The notes below the pieces were generated by a model that saw only the letters and a program-made list of their open reading frames with translations, did no database searches and was not told the origin of the DNA. A stretch of 52,724 bases of DNA, the filler included, from Dimargaris cristalligena (Eukaryota): the NCBI GenBank assembly GCA_003614675.1. It is 2 parts of 2 records of this genome, joined end to end, with 100 filler letters (N's around TTAATTAATTAA, not from the genome) between each part and the next. Parts side by side here need not be neighbours in the genome. Positions count along the whole stretch, not along the records: positions 26,418 to 52,724 come from ML002545.1; 1 more part is not named here. The stretch is one strand, 5' to 3'. A program made the translations under genes and the position numbers. Below, in pieces: positions 22,989 through 31,372 of this stretch; position 1 is the first letter of the stretch, and each line of letters begins with the position of its first letter.

Positions 22989-24351
22989 ATGTCTGCTTGG
23001 ACCCCCGACTCCTGGACCACGAAGCCCATCAAACAAGATGTTACCTTCCCTGACCCCGAGGCCTTTAACGCCGTGGTGCGCAAATTAGGTCAGCTCCCCC
23101 CCGTTGGTGTGTCCCGAAGAGGTCCTCAACCTCCGGGAGCAGCTCCGTAAAGTGGCCCTGGGCGAGGCCTTCCTACTCCAGGGAGGGGACTGCGCCGAAC
23201 TGTTCGATTACTGTGCGGCGGGCCCCATCGAAGACAAACTCAAGGTGTTGCTACAAATGAGTCTGGTCTTGATCTGGGGAGCCGGGATCCCTGTGGTGCG
23301 CATTGCCCGCATGGCCGGCCAGTACGCCAAGCCGCGTTCGAGTCCCTACGAATCGGTCAACGGTCAACAAATTATGTCCTTCCGGGGCGACAACGTGAAC
23401 GGTTTCGACCCCAGCGAGCGCATACCCGATCCCCAGCGGCTGTTAAGCGCCTATTTCCACTCGGCCGCGACCCTCAACTACGTGCGGGCCCTGCTCAGCG
23501 GCGGTTTCGCTGATTTGCACGATCCGATGGCCTGGAACCTCGACCATGTGCGCCACGACCACGTCCGGGGCGAGTACCAAAGCATCGTGAATCAACTGCT
23601 CCAGTCCCTCGACTTTATGCGCACCATCGGGGTTGACCGGGGTGAGTCCCAGCCCGCCCTCAATACGGCCGATATTTTCATGTCGCACGAGGGTTTGATC
23701 TTGGAATACGAGCAGGCCCTTACTCGCCAACAGCAGGCCCGGGGTGCCCCCCAGGCCGACTGGTTTAATTTGGGTACCCATTTCCTCTGGATCGGCGATC
23801 GGACCCGTCAACTCGATGGGGCCCACATTGAATACTTCCGGGGTATCAAGAACCCCATCGGTATCAAGTGCGGACCCAGTCTGGATCCCGCCGAACTGGT
23901 CCGTCTCTTGGCCATTGTGGATTCTGACCGCGAGCCCGGCAAAGTCACCCTGATTACCCGCTACGGTGCCGGAAAAATCGAAAACCATCTGCCCGCCCAC
24001 ATCGAGGCGGTACGGGCCGCGGGTCACTGCGTTGTCTGGGCCTGCGACCCCATGCACGGCAACACGGAATCCACCCCCACGGGCGTCAAGACCCGGCATG
24101 TAGATAACATTATGGCGGAAATTAAGCAAGCCATTGCTATCCACTCGCGTCTAGGAAGCCGCTTAAATGGTATCCACCTCGAACTTACCGGGGAACGGGT
24201 GACCGAGTGCGTGGGTGGTTCCATGGAACTGTCCGCGACGGATTTGGCCCAGAACTACCGCACCTTCTGCGATCCGCGTCTCAACTACCACCAGAGCTTG
24301 GATATCGCCTTTTTGATTGCCCAGCATTACAAGGAATCGCGGTCTAACTAG
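22989..24351 (+). CDS. Class II (plant/AroA-II type) DAHP synthase; intronless, frameshift at poly-C 23096-23102; 453 aa if corrected
   Basis: MSAWTPDSWTTKPIKQ...QLPP/LV, AFLLQGGDCAELF, RMAGQYAKPRS, FRGDNVNG, HFLWIGDRTRQLDGAHIEY, DPMHGNT, HLELTG, CDPRLN. Confidence 0.95.
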
Positions 24352-26317
24352 TCCCCAGCCCGCCTTTTTATGAGCCAAGGGAAGTGTAATGTTTGGGTTA
24401 AGACATCTAGGGCTACATCGCTAGTGGAAATTATTTATTTATATGCATCTCCAAAACTGACCGATGCAATAGCTATTTCTGAAAAAATATTACCGCTAGG
24501 CCAGCTTGATATCTTATAGTTTCCATACATCTTTTTTTTTTTTTTGAATCGTTACGTCTGCTGATTATCTATGAGATAAACTTTCAGCGCGGCCAATTCG
24601 ATAAATGATTAGATCATTTCATAGATTAAAATGGGGAAAATGGAACCTAGCCGTAAAAAGTTGGATTGTAGTGTATACGGTAAAGTCAGTGAGATTGTTC
24701 GATATACCATAAGACTAAACCCAAACTATACGGCGAAAGGCAGAGGTCTTCCACGAAGTAATTTTACATTGACACAATTAAACAGTTCAAATCGGCAAAA
24801 ATGTCCCCCAGTTGGAGCGGGACTGTCGGAGTATAATGTACATTCTGTGGTATACGCTGCTTGATGGTGAAAGTTATCGGAAAAGTAGACACGTCAATCA
24901 CCTTTTAGAATGTATTAGATTGAAGGAAGGTGTACCCCCGGGCCGCGTTATGTACAATGAATCCATCGGCCAAGCCATTTAAATAAAAAAAAAGCTGTAG
25001 GGGCCATGTATAGAGATATATAAACCCAGATACTTTACATGAAGTTGGAAAGAAGGTGCCAGTTAATTGATTTTTAGAGGATTTACAGTTATGGGCGGCA
25101 ATTTGAAATACACTAAACGAAAGTACAGCTAGATTAGAAAAGATCGCAACTACCACTCTGGCTGGAATATATGCTTTGGCCCAGTATTTTAGAAGTCAGT
25201 GCAGACGTTTCAGCAGACTAATCCATTAATTACTATCGAAGCAAACAAAGACAATCCACCAGAGCCCCTCCATTATCCATATCGCCACAGCGGAATTATC
25301 ATCTATATGGAATAATACAATTTATTTGCCATATTACCAGCCTTTATCCTGGACCAGTTCCTATAATAACAAAAATCGGAGTATAAAAACGATACTGCAT
25401 CCAGCTTCATTTAATTCCATTCAACAACATATAAAAACAAATATATTATAAAAAAATCATTTAACCTGCACTTTGGCAGGCACCCCCAAGATTTGAATCA
25501 AGTGGAGGCTGGAGTGTTGGCACGACCCCGGTCGGCCCCGGAAAGTTCCGCCTGGGAGTCATGAGTGGGGTAATCCCTCATTAGTCGGGAGGTATACCGG
25601 GAGTCACCCTGTTGGGGGTGACTGAATATATTTTCTTCCTGCATTACTGCAGGGTATGGCATGCCTGTTTTTGGACAGGCTGCTATTGGTAAATTGGAAT
25701 AAGGCTGTAATTGGGCCATCAGTTGTAAGAGGGGTGGGGAAGGGGTGGAGTTGGAGTTGGAGGGTGGCAGACAAAATTTGGGGGCGGTGTGGGAGTGAAT
25801 CTATGTGTTAAAAGTGCCTGATATAGCAAACTAATTGGTGGATACTAACAGTGGAAATGGCTAGTTTTTATACTTTTTTTTACTAGTAGTCTTATCAACC
25901 ATATTATATGTAGATGCTGCCTATCAATCTTTTCCAAGCAGACTACATTTATGTGACTAGTGCAAAATAATAATGGGAAGACAATGTTCCATTTTGTGGT
26001 GTATTAGGAATTGGCCTAGGAATGGCTATCTTACCACGAGACTCCCTTTGTTGCCTAGTCAAATGGCTTCATGAACATGTGCAATTGATGAAACTGTATT
26101 GTAATAGCTGTTGTATTTTAGTAAGACCTAATGGATACGTATTATGACCTAAAATAGGGTTATGGCCGAGGCTATTGACAGGATGCTTCTACAAAATAAG
26201 GGATTTATGATGACAATGTGGAAAAGCACCCTGAACTTCTAGGTCTGTTTTCCCCCAAGGATGATCAGTCCAACTATAATGGCTAGACCCTTCAATGCCA
26301 CCTGCTACATGCCTTTT

Positions 26318-26417
26318 NNNNNNNNNNNNNNNNNNNNNNNNNNNNNNNNNNNNNNNNNNNNTTAATTAATTAANNNNNNNNNNNNNNNNNNNNNNNNNNN
26401 NNNNNNNNNNNNNNNNN
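26318..26417. other. Artificial scaffold gap: N44 + TTAATTAATTAA + N44
   Basis: Exactly 100 nt, with a central 12-mer that places stop codons in all six frames; a contig-joining linker. Confidence 0.97.
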
Positions 26418-27994
26418 TCCCCGGTTGCCCTAGTTGTCCCTATCTGAAGATCAGATAAGAATTGTCCCCGCCGAAGTGCGTGTTTCCCTTAGCCAGTTAG
26501 TTTTTCCCACTAGACTGAGGCTGCTCCAGTTGGCCCTGATAAGGTTATCGGGCTATATTACCTTGTGGTATTAATTGTGACCACAACACGGTTCTTTCTT
26601 ACTTCTATCTATCTTAAAATAAACTTCATCTTTAGTCTATCTCGGATTATAATTGAGAGAATCTGCGGTTACTCCAACAGAAACAATATTGGTTACGTGG
26701 AAATTACACTTCCACTTAATACATTTGGTCCAAGTATAATCCAGGCTGTAGTACCGTAGGCAATAATACTGGTAATTGCTAGAATACCTACACCTAGAAT
26801 GTGCAAAAAAAAGTAGCTCGCAAGATGATGATCCCAAGGGCGCTGAATAGATAATAATAGGGTAGATATCAATAGTACGAGTTAACTGGTTAAAGATGGC
26901 ATCACAATCGCAAATTAACTAAGCGATAACTATAGGAGCTGGTTCAGCTTTATATAGCCACAAAACATGCTGGGAGGTTCCTACTAGGCGACAAGATAAT
27001 GGGCGAAATAGCAATGAAGGTGCAATAGGGAATAGGTGATGCCGAATAGATAAATCAAGAAATAGTGATAGCTGGAGGAATGCGGTCCTTCAGGGGGTGG
27101 AATTTCCGTACCTTGTTTGCAAATTGACATGGCATCTAGCGTGGGCTTTAGGATGATTTATATAGGAGTGACTGCCCTTTTATTAGTTACAATTGAAAAT
27201 ATAAATGTATCTGATATTAACATATACAACACCATACTCCACAATCGAGACTATTAGTATATAAAATTGACCCTCCGGGTGTTTATATAGAAAAATAGAC
27301 ACTTCCCTTTATTATTGCACCTAGCCTTTCTTACATTTACCTTCCCCGATTCAATAAATGCAACACCTCTGACGACAAGGGGAGGCATTATTCAGTTGGA
27401 AAGCACGTTACTACGGTACCACCACAAGTTTCTTCGAGCTCCCGTATACCATGTTCTTCTTTCCCTCCATCCTTTTATTTACATCCCAACTGGTATTACA
27501 CATTTTTGCCCAAGTGATGCCGGTAGGTCACATGAATACACACTACCACTGAACCTTTGTGACATCCCCACCTGTTAACCCAACCCTAAATCTCATCATT
27601 TGATGATCTGAGATGAAACAAACTAGCCGGACGGCCCTGCCTCCCCCGCCCTAACCACCCGGGCATGAAATAGCACATAAATACTAGGCTCGTTCTTCCT
27701 CCTAATACACCTGTCTTGTCTTTTGAACATTTCTACATGTTAGTGTGCATCGTCCTTCAATCCCCCCACTCTTTGGAGTATATCGAGCTGCTCATGGGAA
27801 CCCATTATAGAACAATCCCTTGATATTGTCCGTAATCTCAAATTTCAGTAGTTATTATATATTGTCATATTTCTGTGCTAGAATCACTCACCTTCGCGCG
27901 AAACATAATCTTGAGGTTTATTTATTTTATAGCACCATCCACTACGTTTTTTCTTGTGCTCTTAAGTACTTAACTATTAGAAAGCTCCATCACG

Positions 27995-29153
27995 ATGGAT
28001 TTTTGGACCCAAATTTTTGCATGCAGTCTACTGATTGGGGCTTTCAAAGGGGGATTTGCTTTGCCCCTACCCCATCCAGTATTTCAACCAATTCAGCAAA
28101 CCACTACAAACTATGTTGATCAGGCCTATTTATGGGCAGCTGAGTATTTGGATCACGAAGAAGCGGGGTCCTTTGGCACATTAGCTGGCATTCATTCATT
28201 CACGCAAACACACTCCCAGTCCCATATGGTGTCTCCTCCTCACGAAGCTAACTTCTGGTCGATGAAAAACGATATATCCGAACTACCGTTCAACTCGGGT
28301 AGTTTCAGTGTTGAGGGAAACGATAAACTCGGTCCAATGGATAGCTACAGCTTCACTCCCCAAAGTTCCAACCCCAGCAGTTTCGAGGCAAATGAAATGG
28401 ACTATTGCCTTACCCTCTTTAGTGCTGATAGTACTCTGTCTATCGAGCCCCCCACTATGTTTGACTTTCCTACCCCACAATTTGCATCCCCCATACCGGC
28501 ACCCCAAAGCGACGATAAGCAAACCCCATTGCAGTCGGTGAGTGAAGGCTCCAGTACTAACGACCTTGAAATGGAGGGTGACGACGGTAACGATGGCCTT
28601 TGTGGTGAAGACCTTCCTGGTTCCACTTGTGGAGATTCCCGACCAGCTGGTTGTCAGTACATTTACTGACCCCGCTTTATATTTGACGCAGACCAATTGG
28701 ACCGCCATATCAGTCTTCACAATACGGGTACCGGATCCAATTGTTCTCAGTGCTACAGCCTGTATTCCCACTCCGCTTATGTATATAAACATCTGGCTAG
28801 CTGTCAAATACGGGTCTGTCCCACTTGCGATATGCGGTTCAGTAGCCGGTCGGGTTTTAATAAGCATGGCCGTGACCGTGGCTGCCCCAATCAACTTAAG
28901 TGTGGAACATGTAAACTGGGGTTTGTCACTCAACGCCAGTACAGCACACACCAGAAGCAAGATTGCTCGAAATTCAAACACCAGTGCACTTTTTGTGGTA
29001 AAACCTACGGCCTTTAGAACCAGTTAAAGCGTCAACAGAACCCTGTCGGTAACCCCCCCCCCCTATAAGTGCTGCTATTGCGCAGAGGTGTTTTTGGTGA
29101 AGTGTAATCAAATTAAGCACCAAAAGTATTGTAAAGTTATCAAGAATTTCTAA
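27995..29153 (+). pseudogene. Disrupted gene for a signal-peptide-bearing protein with six C2H2/C2HC zinc fingers (about 385 codons)
   Basis: ORFs 27995 and 28697 are in the same frame, separated by TGA 28667-28669. A further TAG lies at 29015-29017 and a +1 C in the run 29053-29063. Read through, it gives six C-x2/4-C-x12-H units ending YKCCYCAEVFLVKCNQIKHQKYC. The N-terminus MDFWTQIFACSLLIGAFKGGFA-LPLP looks like a cleavable signal peptide. Confidence 0.75.
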
Positions 29154-29604
29154 TGGGTCAAATCGGGGGCTAATAATAAACCTTTACCTGTATTTACGAG
29201 CGAATAGGGGCTCATCTAGAAATTAATGTCGCTTTATTGCCTGTACGACAATTTATTAACTAATTTTCGATACATACTGGGAGGGGACCAGTAAAATGGT
29301 CGTAAGGATATGGTTAAAGAGTAACGAAATAAAAAAAATGAAAAAAGATAACCCATGCGCAGCAAAGGAAGAGTGCAGGCGTGGGGTAAGAGGTGAGGAT
29401 GGGAGATCCCCAACGAAAAAAGAGAAAAGATAAGGGAAAGAGGGTGGTCTGTAAGACCGGCCGGTCTTATATAGTACTTTTATTGTAGGTCAATCAAGGC
29501 GCAGTCCCTTCTAAAGTAGGGACACCGTCTCATTAACTCATCCTAAACTTCAAATAATCATGGTTTTAATATCTGTTTATCACTTACCTATATTAAATAT
29601 TTTC

Positions 29605-29722
29605 AGTTGTGGCCATATGTCGGGATGTGCTCCGTATCCCGTTAGATCTGCGAAGATAAGCCCCGATCAGTTAATTTAGTACTGAGGTGGGTGACCACTT
29701 GGGAATAGTTAATGCTACAACT
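29605..29722 (+). rRNA. 5S rRNA gene, solitary copy
   Basis: 118 nt. Terminal helix AGTTGTGGC/GCTACAACT, helix II GTCGGG/CCCGAT, loop C ATCCCGTTAGATCTGCGAAG, box A-like AGATAAGC, loop E TAGTA...GGGAA, box C-like GGTGGGTGACCAC, followed by a T run (Pol III terminator). Confidence 0.93.
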
Positions 29723-30398
29723 TTTTATGATCTTTATCAATCATATGAAATGATACAATAGTCTAACAAGATAATTGGGTAGAGAAAATATATGGTATTT
29801 TTGATGGCTGTATTAGTTAGTCTCTTAATCCATTAGTTTTATCAATAGGGCACTATGCAACTATTTATCAAAAGTCCCGTAAACTAGTCCAGGTACCATG
29901 AATTTGGAATGATCCTGCCACTTCCCAGATATATTTGACTCAAAAGCAATATACTGCTTGACTAAAATATACTATACATCTCCTATGAATAAGCAGTTTC
30001 AACCGGTTGGTAGTTGGCACCCACATACTCTGTCTCGGAATACTTTTTTGTATTCTCATTGATAATACTATTGGATCAGATTATTGAAGATGTTCTCATA
30101 GTGTGTTTGTGGGTCGGACAGAGTCTGGGCCCCCTAATAAGCACGTCGCGAAAACACTTTCCAGTTTCCTTGCATCGACTCGGCAATCCAGCCTATAGAG
30201 CCATTCGGGATAACATGGGCCATCAGTAGGCTTGATAACCTATCAACCAGATACTTTGCATCGCGTACAAAGAAACGTGGGTGGATTGGGGCGAGAAGAG
30301 GAAAGGGGGACCAGGACGAAGGTGAATCGTGAAAAACAGTACACCCAACATGCCTCTCTCTACCTGTCCGACCCCTGGACCTTTTTTTATTATTACTA

Positions 30399-31372
30399 TT
30401 ACAGCTCATTCCCGATGGTCACCCAAAAGTCCCGTAAATTATTTTTCCGGCCAAAGATTTCCAAATACTTGCCATTGGGTACGAGTTCCTCGATCATCTG
30501 GTATAGTTCCTCCGGTTTCTGACTCTGCCCCCGGCGTTCCGAAAAGATCACGTCGGACCCCACCGAATGGCGACACCCCGCGGGATCGTTACCCTTCCGG
30601 CCAACCAAACACGTTTCCTTGGCGTGCTGTAAATAATACCCGTGCCCTTTGGCCATGCGTCGATTGACCGTTTGTTTCACCCAGGCAATGTCATCAACGT
30701 ACGTGTAGCCCCATTTTTTCATGAGCTCGAAGGCTTTGGTGTATTTGTTGTTGATGACCCAAATGAAAATAAAACCGTTTTGTTGGAGGAGGTGGATGGG
30801 GAGTTCTTCGATGCAAACGTCGGGGAGTTGTTGGTAGCCAATGGCAACCCCGCGGGTGGGTGCGTGCGTCGCGAGTTGCCAGGGCGGGTCCATGCTGATC
30901 ACGTCGAATTGGCAGGCTTGGGCCAATTTCTCCCATTCGAAGGTCATGACATTGGTTTTAATGGGGATGCACCATTTAGGGGCCTGGAATTCTTCCCAAT
31001 CTGGTGGTAGGGGTATCGATAGGTATAAATAAAGATATATAGATGGACATATACAAGGGCGTGAGTTTTAACATTCAATCCGAAATCCATTACTATGGCT
31101 GAGCAGACTAGGGTTTGGCTAGTAAGCAGGGGAATACATGAAAATATATCTGGGATGGAGGAACTACCTTCTTCGTCTGCGCCGGCGTTATTTCCTGAAG
31201 CGGAGTTATTGGGACCAGAGGAACCCTCGCGCTTAGAACTTCCGAGCTGGGGAAAGCATTTAGCTTCAAGTTCAGCGATTTCTTCCTCAAGGGCCTCGAT
31301 GCGCAGCCGGAGCTCAGCCTCTTGTTCGAGTAGGGCATTAAGGGAAATGTCGGAGGACGCTTGGGCAGCCAT
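30399..31372 (-). CDS. AMT1: MT-A70 family DNA N6-adenine methyltransferase, AMT1/MTA1 clade; exons 31372-31168 and 31000-30399; 268 aa
   Basis: MDPPWQLATHAPTRGVAIGYQQL, GFIFIWVIN, WVKQTVNRRMAKGHGYYLQHAKETCLVG, SDVIFSERRGQSQKPEELY, YLEIFGRKNNL...WVTIGNEL closely follow ciliate MTA1/AMT1 as recalled. A GT-AG intron at 31167-31001 restores the frame (807 nt). The N-terminus is a short coiled coil. Confidence 0.92.

What the first reader, a model, noticed from the sequence alone, without database searches (positions are those of the whole stretch)
27995..29153. Signal peptide fused to a six-zinc-finger array: candidate secreted transcription-factor effector
Seen: a hydrophobic N-terminus ending GFA|LPLP, then about 190 acidic Ser/Pro-rich residues, then six fingers with exact C..C-x12-H spacing (His lost in finger 5), four of them closing with Cys (C2HC), e.g. 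CPTCDMRFSSRSGFNKHGRDRGC. Established: such arrays normally bind nucleic acid in the nucleus and are not secreted; acidic low-complexity tracts are typical activation domains. Inference: the layout fits a protein exported into a host cell to reprogram transcription, functionally analogous to TAL effectors, which would suit a biotrophic or mycoparasitic Zoopagomycota lifestyle. An intronless decayed copy in an AT-rich, gene-poor block beside a gap suggests a birth-and-death family with intact paralogs elsewhere.
Basis: partly seen in the sequence, partly recalled or inferred. Interest (0 to 1): 0.85.

Follow-up and report, generated by a model that had tools for sequence, protein, structure and literature searches.

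The report
Broken zinc-finger gene in a mycoparasite
This is a decayed copy of a six-zinc-finger gene known only from the fungus-parasitising fungus Dimargaris cristalligena; its greasy start looks like an export signal, but stop codons now cut that start off from the fingers, so it cannot make a secreted zinc-finger protein today.

Summary
An ATG at 27995 opens a 224-codon frame. It has an 11-residue hydrophobic start, then about 195 acidic Ser/Pro-rich residues, then six zinc fingers, four of them closing with Cys.

The gene is broken.
- A TGA (28667-28669) sits where the second zinc-binding Cys of finger 1 should be.
- A TAG (29015-29017) interrupts finger 5, which has also lost its His.
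- An 11-C run (29053-29063) shifts the frame before finger 6. One of four laid runs has 13 C, which is in frame.

Both stops are present in a run from a second study.

The window belongs to Dimargaris cristalligena, a haustorial mycoparasite. An exhaustive protein search found one specific relative, an intact 321-aa paralog in the same species (34% identity over the fingers). It has the same six-finger layout and an acidic N-terminal region, but no hydrophobic start. No other protein shares this N-terminus.

Best reading: a young pseudogene of a lineage-specific C2H2/CCHC finger family. The secreted-effector idea is unsupported for this copy, cannot be excluded for its ancestor, and is not new in kind, because Magnaporthe MoHTR1-3 are secreted C2H2 effectors. 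SignalP and RNA data were not available.

The parts
27995..28060 (+). Start codon and hydrophobic, signal-peptide-like N-terminus (residues 1-22). The hydrophobic core is residues 7-17, and a possible cleavage context G-F-A / L-P follows residue 22.
   Evidence: The 11-residue Kyte-Doolittle mean is 2.46. That is the highest of 31 ATG-ORFs of 100 or more codons in the window. It was reached by 0 of 144 zinc-finger hits and 0 of 117 DAHP synthases. The region before the core holds Asp2 and no basic residue.
28061..28651 (+). Acidic Ser/Pro-rich region with no known domain (residues 23-219), probably disordered.
   Evidence: No Pfam family. pI 4.05, with 29 D+E against 4 K+R over residues 26-224. 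The Atlas model of the 224-aa product has mean pLDDT 0.41. No relative found.
28226..28228 (+). Met78, the alternative start used by a second public gene model (147 aa).
   Evidence: P0002 equals residues 78-224 at 100% identity. Both the 147-aa and the 224-aa models are in NCBI.
28652..28720 (+). Finger F0, classical C2H2 spacing, with its second Cys codon replaced by a stop.
   Evidence: C-x4-*-x12-H-x3-H. In BLASTP the stop aligns with the second Cys of finger 1 of paralog P0012, and the following Pro-Arg is conserved.
28667..28669 (+). In-frame TGA (codon 225), the first disabling lesion.
   Evidence: No other letter is read at this place in runs X1, X2, X4 (one sample) or X5 (a second study). 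Both public gene models end here.
28742..28804 (+). Finger F1, CCHC (C-x2-C-x12-H-x3-C).
   Evidence: Aligned to the CCHC finger of P0012.
28817..28885 (+). Finger F2, CCHC (C-x2-C-x12-H-x5-C).
   Evidence: This is the best Pfam zf-C2H2 stretch.
28901..28966 (+). Finger F3, CCHC (C-x2-C-x12-H-x4-C).
   Evidence: The Q-D-C-(S/T)-K-F junction to the next finger is conserved with P0012.
28985..29035 (+). Finger F4, decayed. It reads C-x2-C, then TAG at the 7th of the 12 spacer residues, and Gln (CAA, 29033-29035) where His should be.
   Evidence: P0012 has Arg at the place of the stop and His at the place of the Gln. The spacing to the next finger is the same in both.
29015..29017 (+). In-frame TAG (codon 341), the second disabling lesion.
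   Evidence: No other letter is read here in any of the four laid runs.
29053..29063 (+). Run of 11 C that encodes the poly-Pro linker and shifts the frame by -2. Its true length is uncertain.
   Evidence: 11 C; run X1 has two more C, while X2, X4 and X5 match the window. By my own reading, 13 C gives G-N-P-P-P-P-Y-K-C in frame, which matches S-G-P-P-P-P-Y-T-C of P0012.
29070..29132 (+). Finger F5, CCHC, in the +1 frame of the window.
   Evidence: It aligns to the last finger of P0012 (score 74; tblastn 29046-29132).
29151..29153 (+). TAA that ends the frame of finger F5, the presumed original stop codon.

Best explanation
The locus is a young pseudogene, a decayed paralog in a small six-finger family found so far only in Dimargaris cristalligena. 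The family layout is an acidic disordered N-terminal region followed by one C2H2 finger, three CCHC fingers, a three-ligand finger, a poly-Pro linker and a last CCHC finger.

Shown: the intact paralog (P0012) has the same layout. Here the second Cys codon of finger 1 is a TGA, and finger 5 carries a TAG and a His-to-Gln change. The C-run before finger 6 is out of frame in the window and in 3 of 4 laid runs.

Inferred: the ancestor was a zinc-dependent nuclear regulator that worked inside the fungus. Its acidic region would have recruited partners. Its classical finger(s) would have contacted nucleic acid, and its CCHC fingers may have contacted proteins.

Today translation from Met1 would end at codon 224. 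The product would be a finger-less acidic protein with a hydrophobic start. That 224-aa product is what public annotation records. The hydrophobic start is real sequence, but nothing shows that it works as an export signal.
For: - Collinearity with P0012: BLASTP gives 72.4 bits, E 8e-19, 40 of 119 residues identical. The TGA lies opposite the second Cys of finger 1.
- After the TAG the sequence stays collinear with P0012, including the poly-Pro linker and the last finger.
- P0012 is the only one of 152 stored proteins with 4 or more CCHC-pattern fingers, at most 1 CCHH-pattern finger and a PPPP run.
- Both stops carry no alternative letter in X1, X2, X4 or the second-study run X5. X5 differs from the window at 4 other places, so it is not the same data. 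Both public gene models also end at the TGA.
- Same species: the window's DAHP synthase is 100% identical to the D. cristalligena protein, and P0012 is named D. cristalligena by its source.
- P0012 has no hydrophobic start.
- No protein shares residues 1-77.
- GC at third codon positions is 0.40-0.50 here, against 0.60-0.74 in six neighbouring genes.
- Pfam and PDB sequence searches give only classical tandem zinc fingers.
Against: - The N-terminal 224 codons are still open (0 of 20,000 shuffles).
- By my count, 21 of 23 zinc-ligand positions are intact. The decay is therefore very recent, or part of the gene is still under selection.
- All 3 differences between the window and run X5 inside the locus fall on third codon positions, and 2 of the 3 are synonymous. 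With three sites this is only a hint of constraint.
- The hydrophobic start is unusual for such proteins (0 of 144 zinc-finger hits reach a mean of even 2.0). 'No significance' is therefore not shown either.
- The C-run frameshift may be technical (13 C in X1).
- X5's contig carries 4 gap positions that the output did not itemise.
- The N-terminus of P0012 rests on an unverified gene model.
Confidence: 0.7

Rival explanations
1. Relic of a secreted effector. Before it broke, this paralog had gained a working signal peptide. It was exported from the haustorium into the host fungus, where its fingers and acidic region acted in the host nucleus. This is the same principle as the MoHTR effectors of Magnaporthe. 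The copy then died in a birth-and-death process typical of effector genes.
For: - The start has signal-peptide-like features: an 11-residue hydrophobic core, Gly at -3 and Ala at -1 before L-P.
- Such a start was seen in 0 of 144 zinc-finger hits and 0 of 117 DAHP synthases.
- The frame is open for 84 codons upstream of Met78 (chance 0.016), which favours Met1 as the start.
- The organism is a haustorial biotroph of fungi (PMC9866270 passages).
- Secreted proteins with a signal peptide, an NLS and a C2H2 finger exist (MoHTR1-3; PMC10189765 abstract and passages).
- The locus lies in an AT-richer block flanked by repeats.
Against: - No signal-peptide predictor could be run.
- The region before the core is acidic (Asp2) and the first basic residue follows the core. 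From general knowledge, this is the reverse of the usual charge pattern.
- Random ATG-ORFs in this T-rich stretch reach 2.1-2.2 in 3 of the other 30 cases, so a hydrophobic start can arise by drift.
- The only relative lacks the hydrophobic start.
- No paralog shares it.
- No expression data were available.
Confidence: 0.12
2. The truncated gene is still in use. The 224-aa product (hydrophobic start plus acidic disordered region, no fingers) is the functional protein, either secreted or membrane-tethered. The finger region has become untranslated trailer.
For: - The 224-codon frame is intact and is annotated as a protein in public records.
- Both nonsense lesions lie downstream of it.
- Third-position bias of the three differences to X5.
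Against: - Codon usage is no better than background (log-odds -0.06 to 0.12 per codon).
- GC at third positions is far below that of the neighbours.
- No relative of this region exists anywhere.
- By my arithmetic, two lesions falling by chance in the last 160 of about 385 codons is not unlikely (about 0.17).
- A stop about 480 bases before the old end could expose the mRNA to decay (general knowledge).
Confidence: 0.12
3. The full-length protein (start plus six fingers) is still made. In this reading TGA is read as selenocysteine or read through, TAG is read through, and the C-run shift is an assembly error.
For: - A TGA opposite a Cys of a homolog is the classical signature of a selenoprotein gene.
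- Some Kickxellomycotina use selenocysteine (bioRxiv 10.1101/314781, passages).
- 13 C in run X1 restores the frame.
Against: - No SECIS or any other RNA family match up to E = 5 in 27500-30400, apart from 5S rRNA and a chance-level scaRNA match.
- The second stop is TAG, which selenocysteine cannot explain.
- Finger 5 has also lost its His.
- The preprint names five Sec-using fungi, and the word Dimargaris does not occur in its text.
- Long neighbouring frames of 700-1247 codons are free of all three stops, so the genetic code is standard.
Confidence: 0.03

Closest known systems
Hypothetical protein BJ085DRAFT_41404 of Dimargaris cristalligena (P0012, 321 aa; name as given by the source)
   Same: - Same species.
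- Same order of parts: acidic Ser/Pro-rich N-terminal region (pI 4.7 against 4.05), then a C2H2 finger, three CCHC fingers, a finger with only C, C and H ligands, a G-P-P-P-P-Y linker and a last CCHC finger.
- 34% identity over the fingers, with identical spacing.
   Different: - P0012 is uninterrupted, while this locus has two stops, a lost His and a frame shift.
- P0012 starts with a hydrophilic sequence, while this locus starts with an 11-residue hydrophobic core.
- N-terminal regions show no significant similarity (802 of 1000 shuffles score as high).
- The N-terminal region before finger 1 is 219 residues here and 158 in P0012.
MoHTR1, MoHTR2 and MoHTR3, secreted nuclear C2H2 effectors of Magnaporthe oryzae (PMC10189765, abstract and passages; listing of PMC11555045 and PMC12488382)
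   Same: There the signal peptide was shown to be needed for delivery.
   Different: - MoHTRs are described as small proteins with an NLS and one C2H2 finger domain, delivered into plant cells.
- This locus would encode about 385 residues with six fingers, four of them CCHC.
- It has no demonstrated signal peptide or NLS, it is broken, and the host would be a fungus.
- Sequence relatedness to MoHTRs was not tested, because no MoHTR sequence was fetched.
Finger-type CCHC zinc fingers (FOG, U-shaped, NEMO, MOZ, BCL11A, ZNF750; PMC10465944, abstract and Discussion passages)
   Same: The ligand pattern C-x2-C-x12-H-x3-5-C of F1, F2, F3 and F5. This is a classical finger with Cys as the last ligand. 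The pattern is conserved in both paralogs.
   Different: - Those examples are animal proteins with no detectable specific sequence kinship here.
- Their CCHC fingers are reported to bind proteins, and what these fingers bind is unknown.
- The fold could not be checked here, because the single-sequence model was unusable.
TAL effectors of Xanthomonas
   Same: Only the general idea of an exported protein that acts on host transcription through an acidic activation region.
   Different: No TAL repeats. Pfam finds only zinc-finger families, and no direct or tandem repeats were found. The organism is a eukaryote, and the export route would be different.

Membership tests
Classical C2H2 zinc finger (Pfam PF00096) | Profile score above the curated cut-off | tested here: met
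   zf-C2H2 scores 30 bits (E 6.2e-07) against a cut-off of 25.2 for 28670-29014. Paralog P0012 scores 56.5 bits.
Classical C2H2 zinc finger (Pfam PF00096) | Ligand spacing C-x2-4-C-x12-H-x3-5-H | tested here: inconclusive
   The spacing is exact in all six fingers. Only F0 ends in His, and its second Cys is a stop. F1, F2, F3 and F5 end in Cys (CCHC variant). F4 has Gln for His.
Classical C2H2 zinc finger (Pfam PF00096) | Beta-beta-alpha fold around zinc | tested here: inconclusive
   The single-sequence AlphaFold2 model has mean pLDDT 32.9 and is unusable. PDB sequence matches are all classical fingers: Aart, ZNF568, CTCF, Zif268.
Dimargaris six-finger family (this locus plus P0012) | Same order, type and spacing of six fingers with a poly-Pro linker before the last | tested here: met
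Dimargaris six-finger family (this locus plus P0012) | Uninterrupted reading frame | tested here: not met
   TGA at 28667, TAG at 29015 and a frame shift at 29053-29063. The stops are confirmed in runs of two studies.
Secreted nuclear zinc-finger effector (MoHTR type) | N-terminal signal peptide, predicted and functional | not testable with these tools
   Only crude features were available: a hydrophobic core of 2.46 and G/A at -3/-1, but an acidic region before the core. There was no SignalP and no secretion assay.
Secreted nuclear zinc-finger effector (MoHTR type) | Signal peptide and zinc finger in one translated product | tested here: not met
   The TGA at codon 225 precedes every complete finger.
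Secreted nuclear zinc-finger effector (MoHTR type) | Relatives share the signal peptide | tested here: not met
   The only specific relative lacks it. No listed hit has its best stretch in residues 1-77 (150 of 166 hits listed).
Secreted nuclear zinc-finger effector (MoHTR type) | Expression during host contact, and a nuclear localisation signal | not tested
   No RNA run is listed. No NLS predictor was run.
Selenoprotein gene (TGA read as Sec) | TGA opposite Cys in a homolog | tested here: met
Selenoprotein gene (TGA read as Sec) | SECIS element downstream | tested here: not met
   No SECIS match up to E = 5 in 27500-30400.
Selenoprotein gene (TGA read as Sec) | Sec machinery in the genome | not testable with these tools
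   No genome is held. The preprint's five Sec-using fungi do not include Dimargaris (passages).
TAL effector | Tandem repeats of 33-35 residues | tested here: not met
   No direct or tandem repeats. Pfam finds only zinc-finger families.

The most novel reading that the evidence does not exclude
The locus is the corpse of a fungus-to-fungus nuclear effector. In this reading a Dimargaris-specific array of CCHC-type fingers gained a signal peptide, was delivered through the haustorium into the host fungus and acted in its nucleus, and was then discarded. It would be a secreted zinc-finger effector candidate outside Magnaporthe, in an early-diverging mycoparasite, built mostly from finger-CCHC modules that are known so far only as protein binders.
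Probability: 0.1. Interest if true: 0.6.

Novelty: new member of a known kind. Interest (0 to 1): 0.27.

Why it matters
As it stands the finding is a correction of annotation. The public 224-aa and 147-aa 'proteins' of this locus are the surviving head of a broken six-finger gene.

Two points keep some value.

First, D. cristalligena carries a small family of its own in which four of six classical-type fingers use Cys as the last ligand, and this is conserved between paralogs only 34% identical. Few finger-CCHC domains have been characterised, and all described ones bind proteins (PMC10465944). The intact paralog is therefore a cheap test case.

Second, the MoHTR3 paper states that C2H2 nuclear effector candidates were found only in M. 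oryzae among the fungi it compared (PMC10189765, passage citing its Table S1, which I could not see). If the hydrophobic start proves to be a working signal peptide, the locus would hint that secreted zinc-finger effectors also arose in a fungus that parasitises fungi.

Tried and rejected
- Intron over the TGA. GT..AG candidates of 39 and 42 bases exist, with a TACTGAC branch-like motif. I rejected this because the TGA and its neighbours align residue for residue with finger 1 of P0012. The one clear intron I looked at in the window is about 66 bases.
- Selenocysteine or read-through: see the rival explanations.
- Own genome: none is held. Unannotated paralogs or pseudogenes elsewhere in the genome could therefore not be sought. 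Inside the window, tblastn with P0012 hits only this locus.
- Word-based homolog search with the read-through protein gave nothing at E <= 0.01 among 353 candidates of 187-595 aa. With P0012 as query it found only P0012 itself among 583 candidates of 176-562 aa.
- Expression: no RNA holder is listed. All laid runs are DNA contigs.
- N-terminal homology to P0012 is not significant over the whole region (802 of 1000 shuffles). A 9-residue match at the same distance from Met1 was reached by 9 of 1000 shuffles, but that window was chosen after seeing it.
- ESM Atlas gave no usable hit for the 224-aa product, and only generic C2H2 clusters for P0012.
- AlphaFold2 on 28670-29014 without an alignment gave pLDDT 32.9, so no fold search was made.
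- A comparison across the frame shift by one reference failed because of the stops. It was done frame by frame instead.
- No repeats of 40 bases or more in the window. No tandem repeats in 24300-30500. No tRNA genes. Nothing points to a transposon carrying the gene.
- Earlier findings of this scan: four look-ups, all empty.
- One weak hit confined to the acidic region (P0094, query residues 150-195, E 2e-4) was not followed up.
Full report
WHAT IS THERE

- An ATG at 27995, with A at -3 and G at +4, opens a frame of 224 codons.
- Residues 7-17 form a hydrophobic core (Kyte-Doolittle mean 2.46), followed by K-G-G-F-A and L-P-L-P.
- Residues 26-224 are acidic and rich in Ser and Pro: 29 D+E against 4 K+R, 27 Ser, 19 Pro, pI 4.05. 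They match no Pfam family. The ESM Atlas model of this product has mean pLDDT 0.41.

Six fingers with exact C-C-x12-H spacing follow.

- F0 (28652-28720) is C2H2.
- F1 (28742-28804), F2 (28817-28885) and F3 (28901-28966) close with Cys.
- F4 (28985-29035) has Gln where the His should be.
- F5 (29070-29132) closes with Cys.

The array is not chance. The strict pattern occurs five times in all six frames of the window. Four of the five are here, and the fifth is full of stops. Pfam zf-C2H2 passes its cut-off, 30 against 25.2 bits.

THE GENE IS BROKEN

Frame 0 holds two stops, TGA at 28667-28669 and TAG at 29015-29017. F5 lies in the +1 frame behind a run of 11 C at 29053-29063.

At first I took the TGA for part of a short intron, because GT..AG candidates of 39 or 42 bases with a TACTGAC motif surround it. 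The paralog alignment described below rules this out.

I laid public contigs on the locus: three runs of one sample (X1, X2, X4) and one run of another study (X5). No alternative letter appears at either stop. X5 differs from the window at four other places (27571, 28249, 28849, 29029), so it is separate data.

The C-run is different. X1 has two more C, while X2, X4 and X5 agree with the window. By my own reading, thirteen C would put F5 in frame. The frame shift may therefore be technical, but the two stops are not. X5's contig also carries four gap positions that the output did not itemise.

Both public gene models of the locus end at the TGA. One has 224 aa and the other 147 aa starting at Met78. 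Both are in NCBI and neither has a name shown.

ORGANISM

The window's class-II DAHP synthase is 100% identical to the protein that its source names Dimargaris cristalligena. The next best hits are at 78%, from Dispira and Tieghemiomyces.

Dimargaritales parasitise other fungi through an appressorium and a haustorium (PMC9866270, Introduction passage).

RELATIVES

A word-based search with the read-through protein (X at the TGA) found nothing.

The exhaustive HMMER search of 1.84 billion representatives gave 166 hits at E <= 0.001, of which 150 were listed.

- The top hit is the locus's own 147-aa model.
- No listed hit has its best stretch in residues 1-77.
- Almost all others are generic poly-finger proteins at 21-35% identity.

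One hit stands apart. P0012 (321 aa, E 5.3e-8) is named 'hypothetical protein BJ085DRAFT_41404 [Dimargaris cristalligena]' by its source. Of 152 stored proteins it is the only one with four CCHC-pattern fingers, one CCHH-pattern finger and a PPPP run.

Pairwise BLASTP gives 40 of 119 identical residues, E 8e-19. The alignment is collinear finger by finger.

- It starts with a C2H2 finger, followed by three CCHC fingers with the same H-to-C distances class.
- Next comes a fifth finger with only C, C and H ligands, then the linker S-G-P-P-P-P-Y-T-C.
- It ends with a last CCHC finger.
- The window's TGA lies opposite the second Cys of finger 1 of P0012, with the next two residues (Pro-Arg) identical.
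- The TAG lies opposite an Arg in the spacer of finger 5.
- The Gln lies opposite the His of finger 5.
- Beyond the TAG the window still aligns, both in frame 0 and, after the C-run, in frame +1.

The locus is thus an intronless, collinear paralog of an intact gene of the same species, with two nonsense changes, one lost ligand and possibly one frame shift. A search with P0012 found no further member of near length.

THE N-TERMINUS

The N-terminal region of P0012 is also acidic (158 residues, pI 4.7). It begins with a hydrophilic sequence, and its best 11-residue hydrophobicity is 0.86.

Similarity between the two N-terminal regions is not significant: 802 of 1000 shuffles score as high.

The hydrophobic start here is unusual. 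None of 144 zinc-finger hits and none of 117 DAHP synthases that begin with Met reaches a mean of even 2.0.

Several points weaken it as a signal peptide.

- Among 31 ATG-ORFs of 100 or more codons in any frame of this window, three others reach 2.1-2.2. Such a segment can therefore arise from T-rich sequence alone.
- From general knowledge of signal peptides, the core length and the small residues at -3 and -1 fit.
- The charge pattern does not fit. Asp2 lies before the core and the first Lys lies after it.
- SignalP could not be run.

Met1 rather than Met78 is the likelier original start, because the frame is open for 84 codons above Met78 (chance 0.016).

IS IT DEAD?

For decay:
- two stops in two studies;
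- a lost His;
- GC at third codon positions of 0.40-0.50 against 0.60-0.74 in six neighbouring genes;
- codon-usage log-odds near zero.

For recency or residual constraint:
- the first 224 codons are open (0 of 20,000 shuffles);
- 21 of 23 ligand positions are intact (my count);
- the three differences to X5 inside the locus are all at third codon positions, two of them silent.

No RNA run is listed, so expression is unknown.

Selenocysteine at the TGA was considered, because a TGA opposite Cys is the classical signature. Three things speak against it.
- There is no SECIS in 27500-30400.
- The second stop is TAG.
- The preprint on Sec in fungi names five species and never mentions Dimargaris (bioRxiv 10.1101/314781, passages).

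WHAT THE FAMILY PROBABLY DOES

Sequence matches to solved structures are all classical tandem DNA-binding fingers: Aart, ZNF568, PRDM9, CTCF, Zif268.

However, four of the six fingers are the finger-CCHC variant. A recent structural paper states that this variant keeps the classical fold. It also states that all described examples (FOG, U-shaped, NEMO, MOZ, BCL11A) mediate protein-protein contacts. In BCL11A the CCHH fingers bind DNA and the CCHC finger binds proteins (PMC10465944, abstract and Discussion passages).

The linkers between fingers here are 4-6 residues, shorter than the canonical seven. This is my count, and the canonical value is recalled.

My inference is a nuclear regulator whose classical finger(s) touch nucleic acid while the CCHC fingers and the acidic region recruit partners. 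None of this was tested. A single-sequence AlphaFold2 model was unusable (pLDDT 32.9).

COMPARISON WITH THE KNOWN

MoHTR1-3 of Magnaporthe oryzae are small secreted proteins with a signal peptide, an NLS and a C2H2 finger. They reach the host nucleus, and the signal peptide of MoHTR3 was shown to be needed for delivery (PMC10189765, abstract and passages).

Against that type, this locus fails two tested features. Start and fingers are not in one product, and its only relative lacks the start. The remaining features could not be tested. TAL effectors share nothing with it but the idea.

VERDICT

- Observation: confirmed.
- Interpretation: partly supported. Decay, an intact paralog and the lifestyle hold. 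The secreted transcription-factor effector does not hold for this copy and is unproven for its ancestor.
- Best explanation: a young pseudogene of a Dimargaris-specific C2H2/CCHC six-finger family (0.7).
- Rivals: relic of a once-secreted effector (0.12), the truncated 224-aa product still in use (0.12), and a full-length product by recoding (0.03).
- Interest: low to moderate.

Noticed in passing
window 29605-29723 (+): A complete 5S rRNA gene (92.5 bits, E 9e-19) lies about 450 bases downstream of the locus. Contig depth rises 10- to 200-fold over it, and many contigs join it with different upstream flanks. 5S genes therefore seem to be dispersed in many copies in this genome.
   Followed up: partly
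window about 29200-29600: The stretch between the locus and the 5S gene is a moderately repeated element. Several variant contigs map per run, with 10-15 differences per 100 bases, and one variant replaces 101 bases (29313-29415) by 25 others in three runs. In every run the single-copy contig that carries the locus ends at 29274.
   Followed up: no
window 22989-24348 (+): The public DAHP synthase protein (449 aa) maps as two blocks, 22989-23078 and 23089-24348, in different frames and only 10 bases apart, just upstream of a run of C. That is too short for an intron. The gene model seems to bridge an indel, which suggests that homopolymer lengths in this assembly are unreliable.
   Followed up: partly
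window 27995-28669: Public records hold two different models of the same locus, from two contigs of different length (26,307 and 41,548 bases). One has 224 aa from Met1 and the other 147 aa from Met78. Neither includes the fingers.
   Followed up: yes
window 30399-31067 (-): An open frame with an MT-A70 methyltransferase domain (E 2.7e-37) is the next gene downstream. It is of the adenine-methyltransferase family.
   Followed up: no
window 26318-26361 and 26374-26417: Two runs of 44 N separated by 12 bases join two contigs of 26,317 and 26,307 bases, the contig lengths reported for the window's proteins. The locus lies 1.6 kb from this gap.
   Followed up: partly
window 27995-29150 versus neighbouring genes: GC at third codon positions is 0.40-0.52 in the locus, against 0.60-0.74 in six neighbouring genes. 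This may be decay, low expression or regional AT-richness. I could not separate these.
   Followed up: partly
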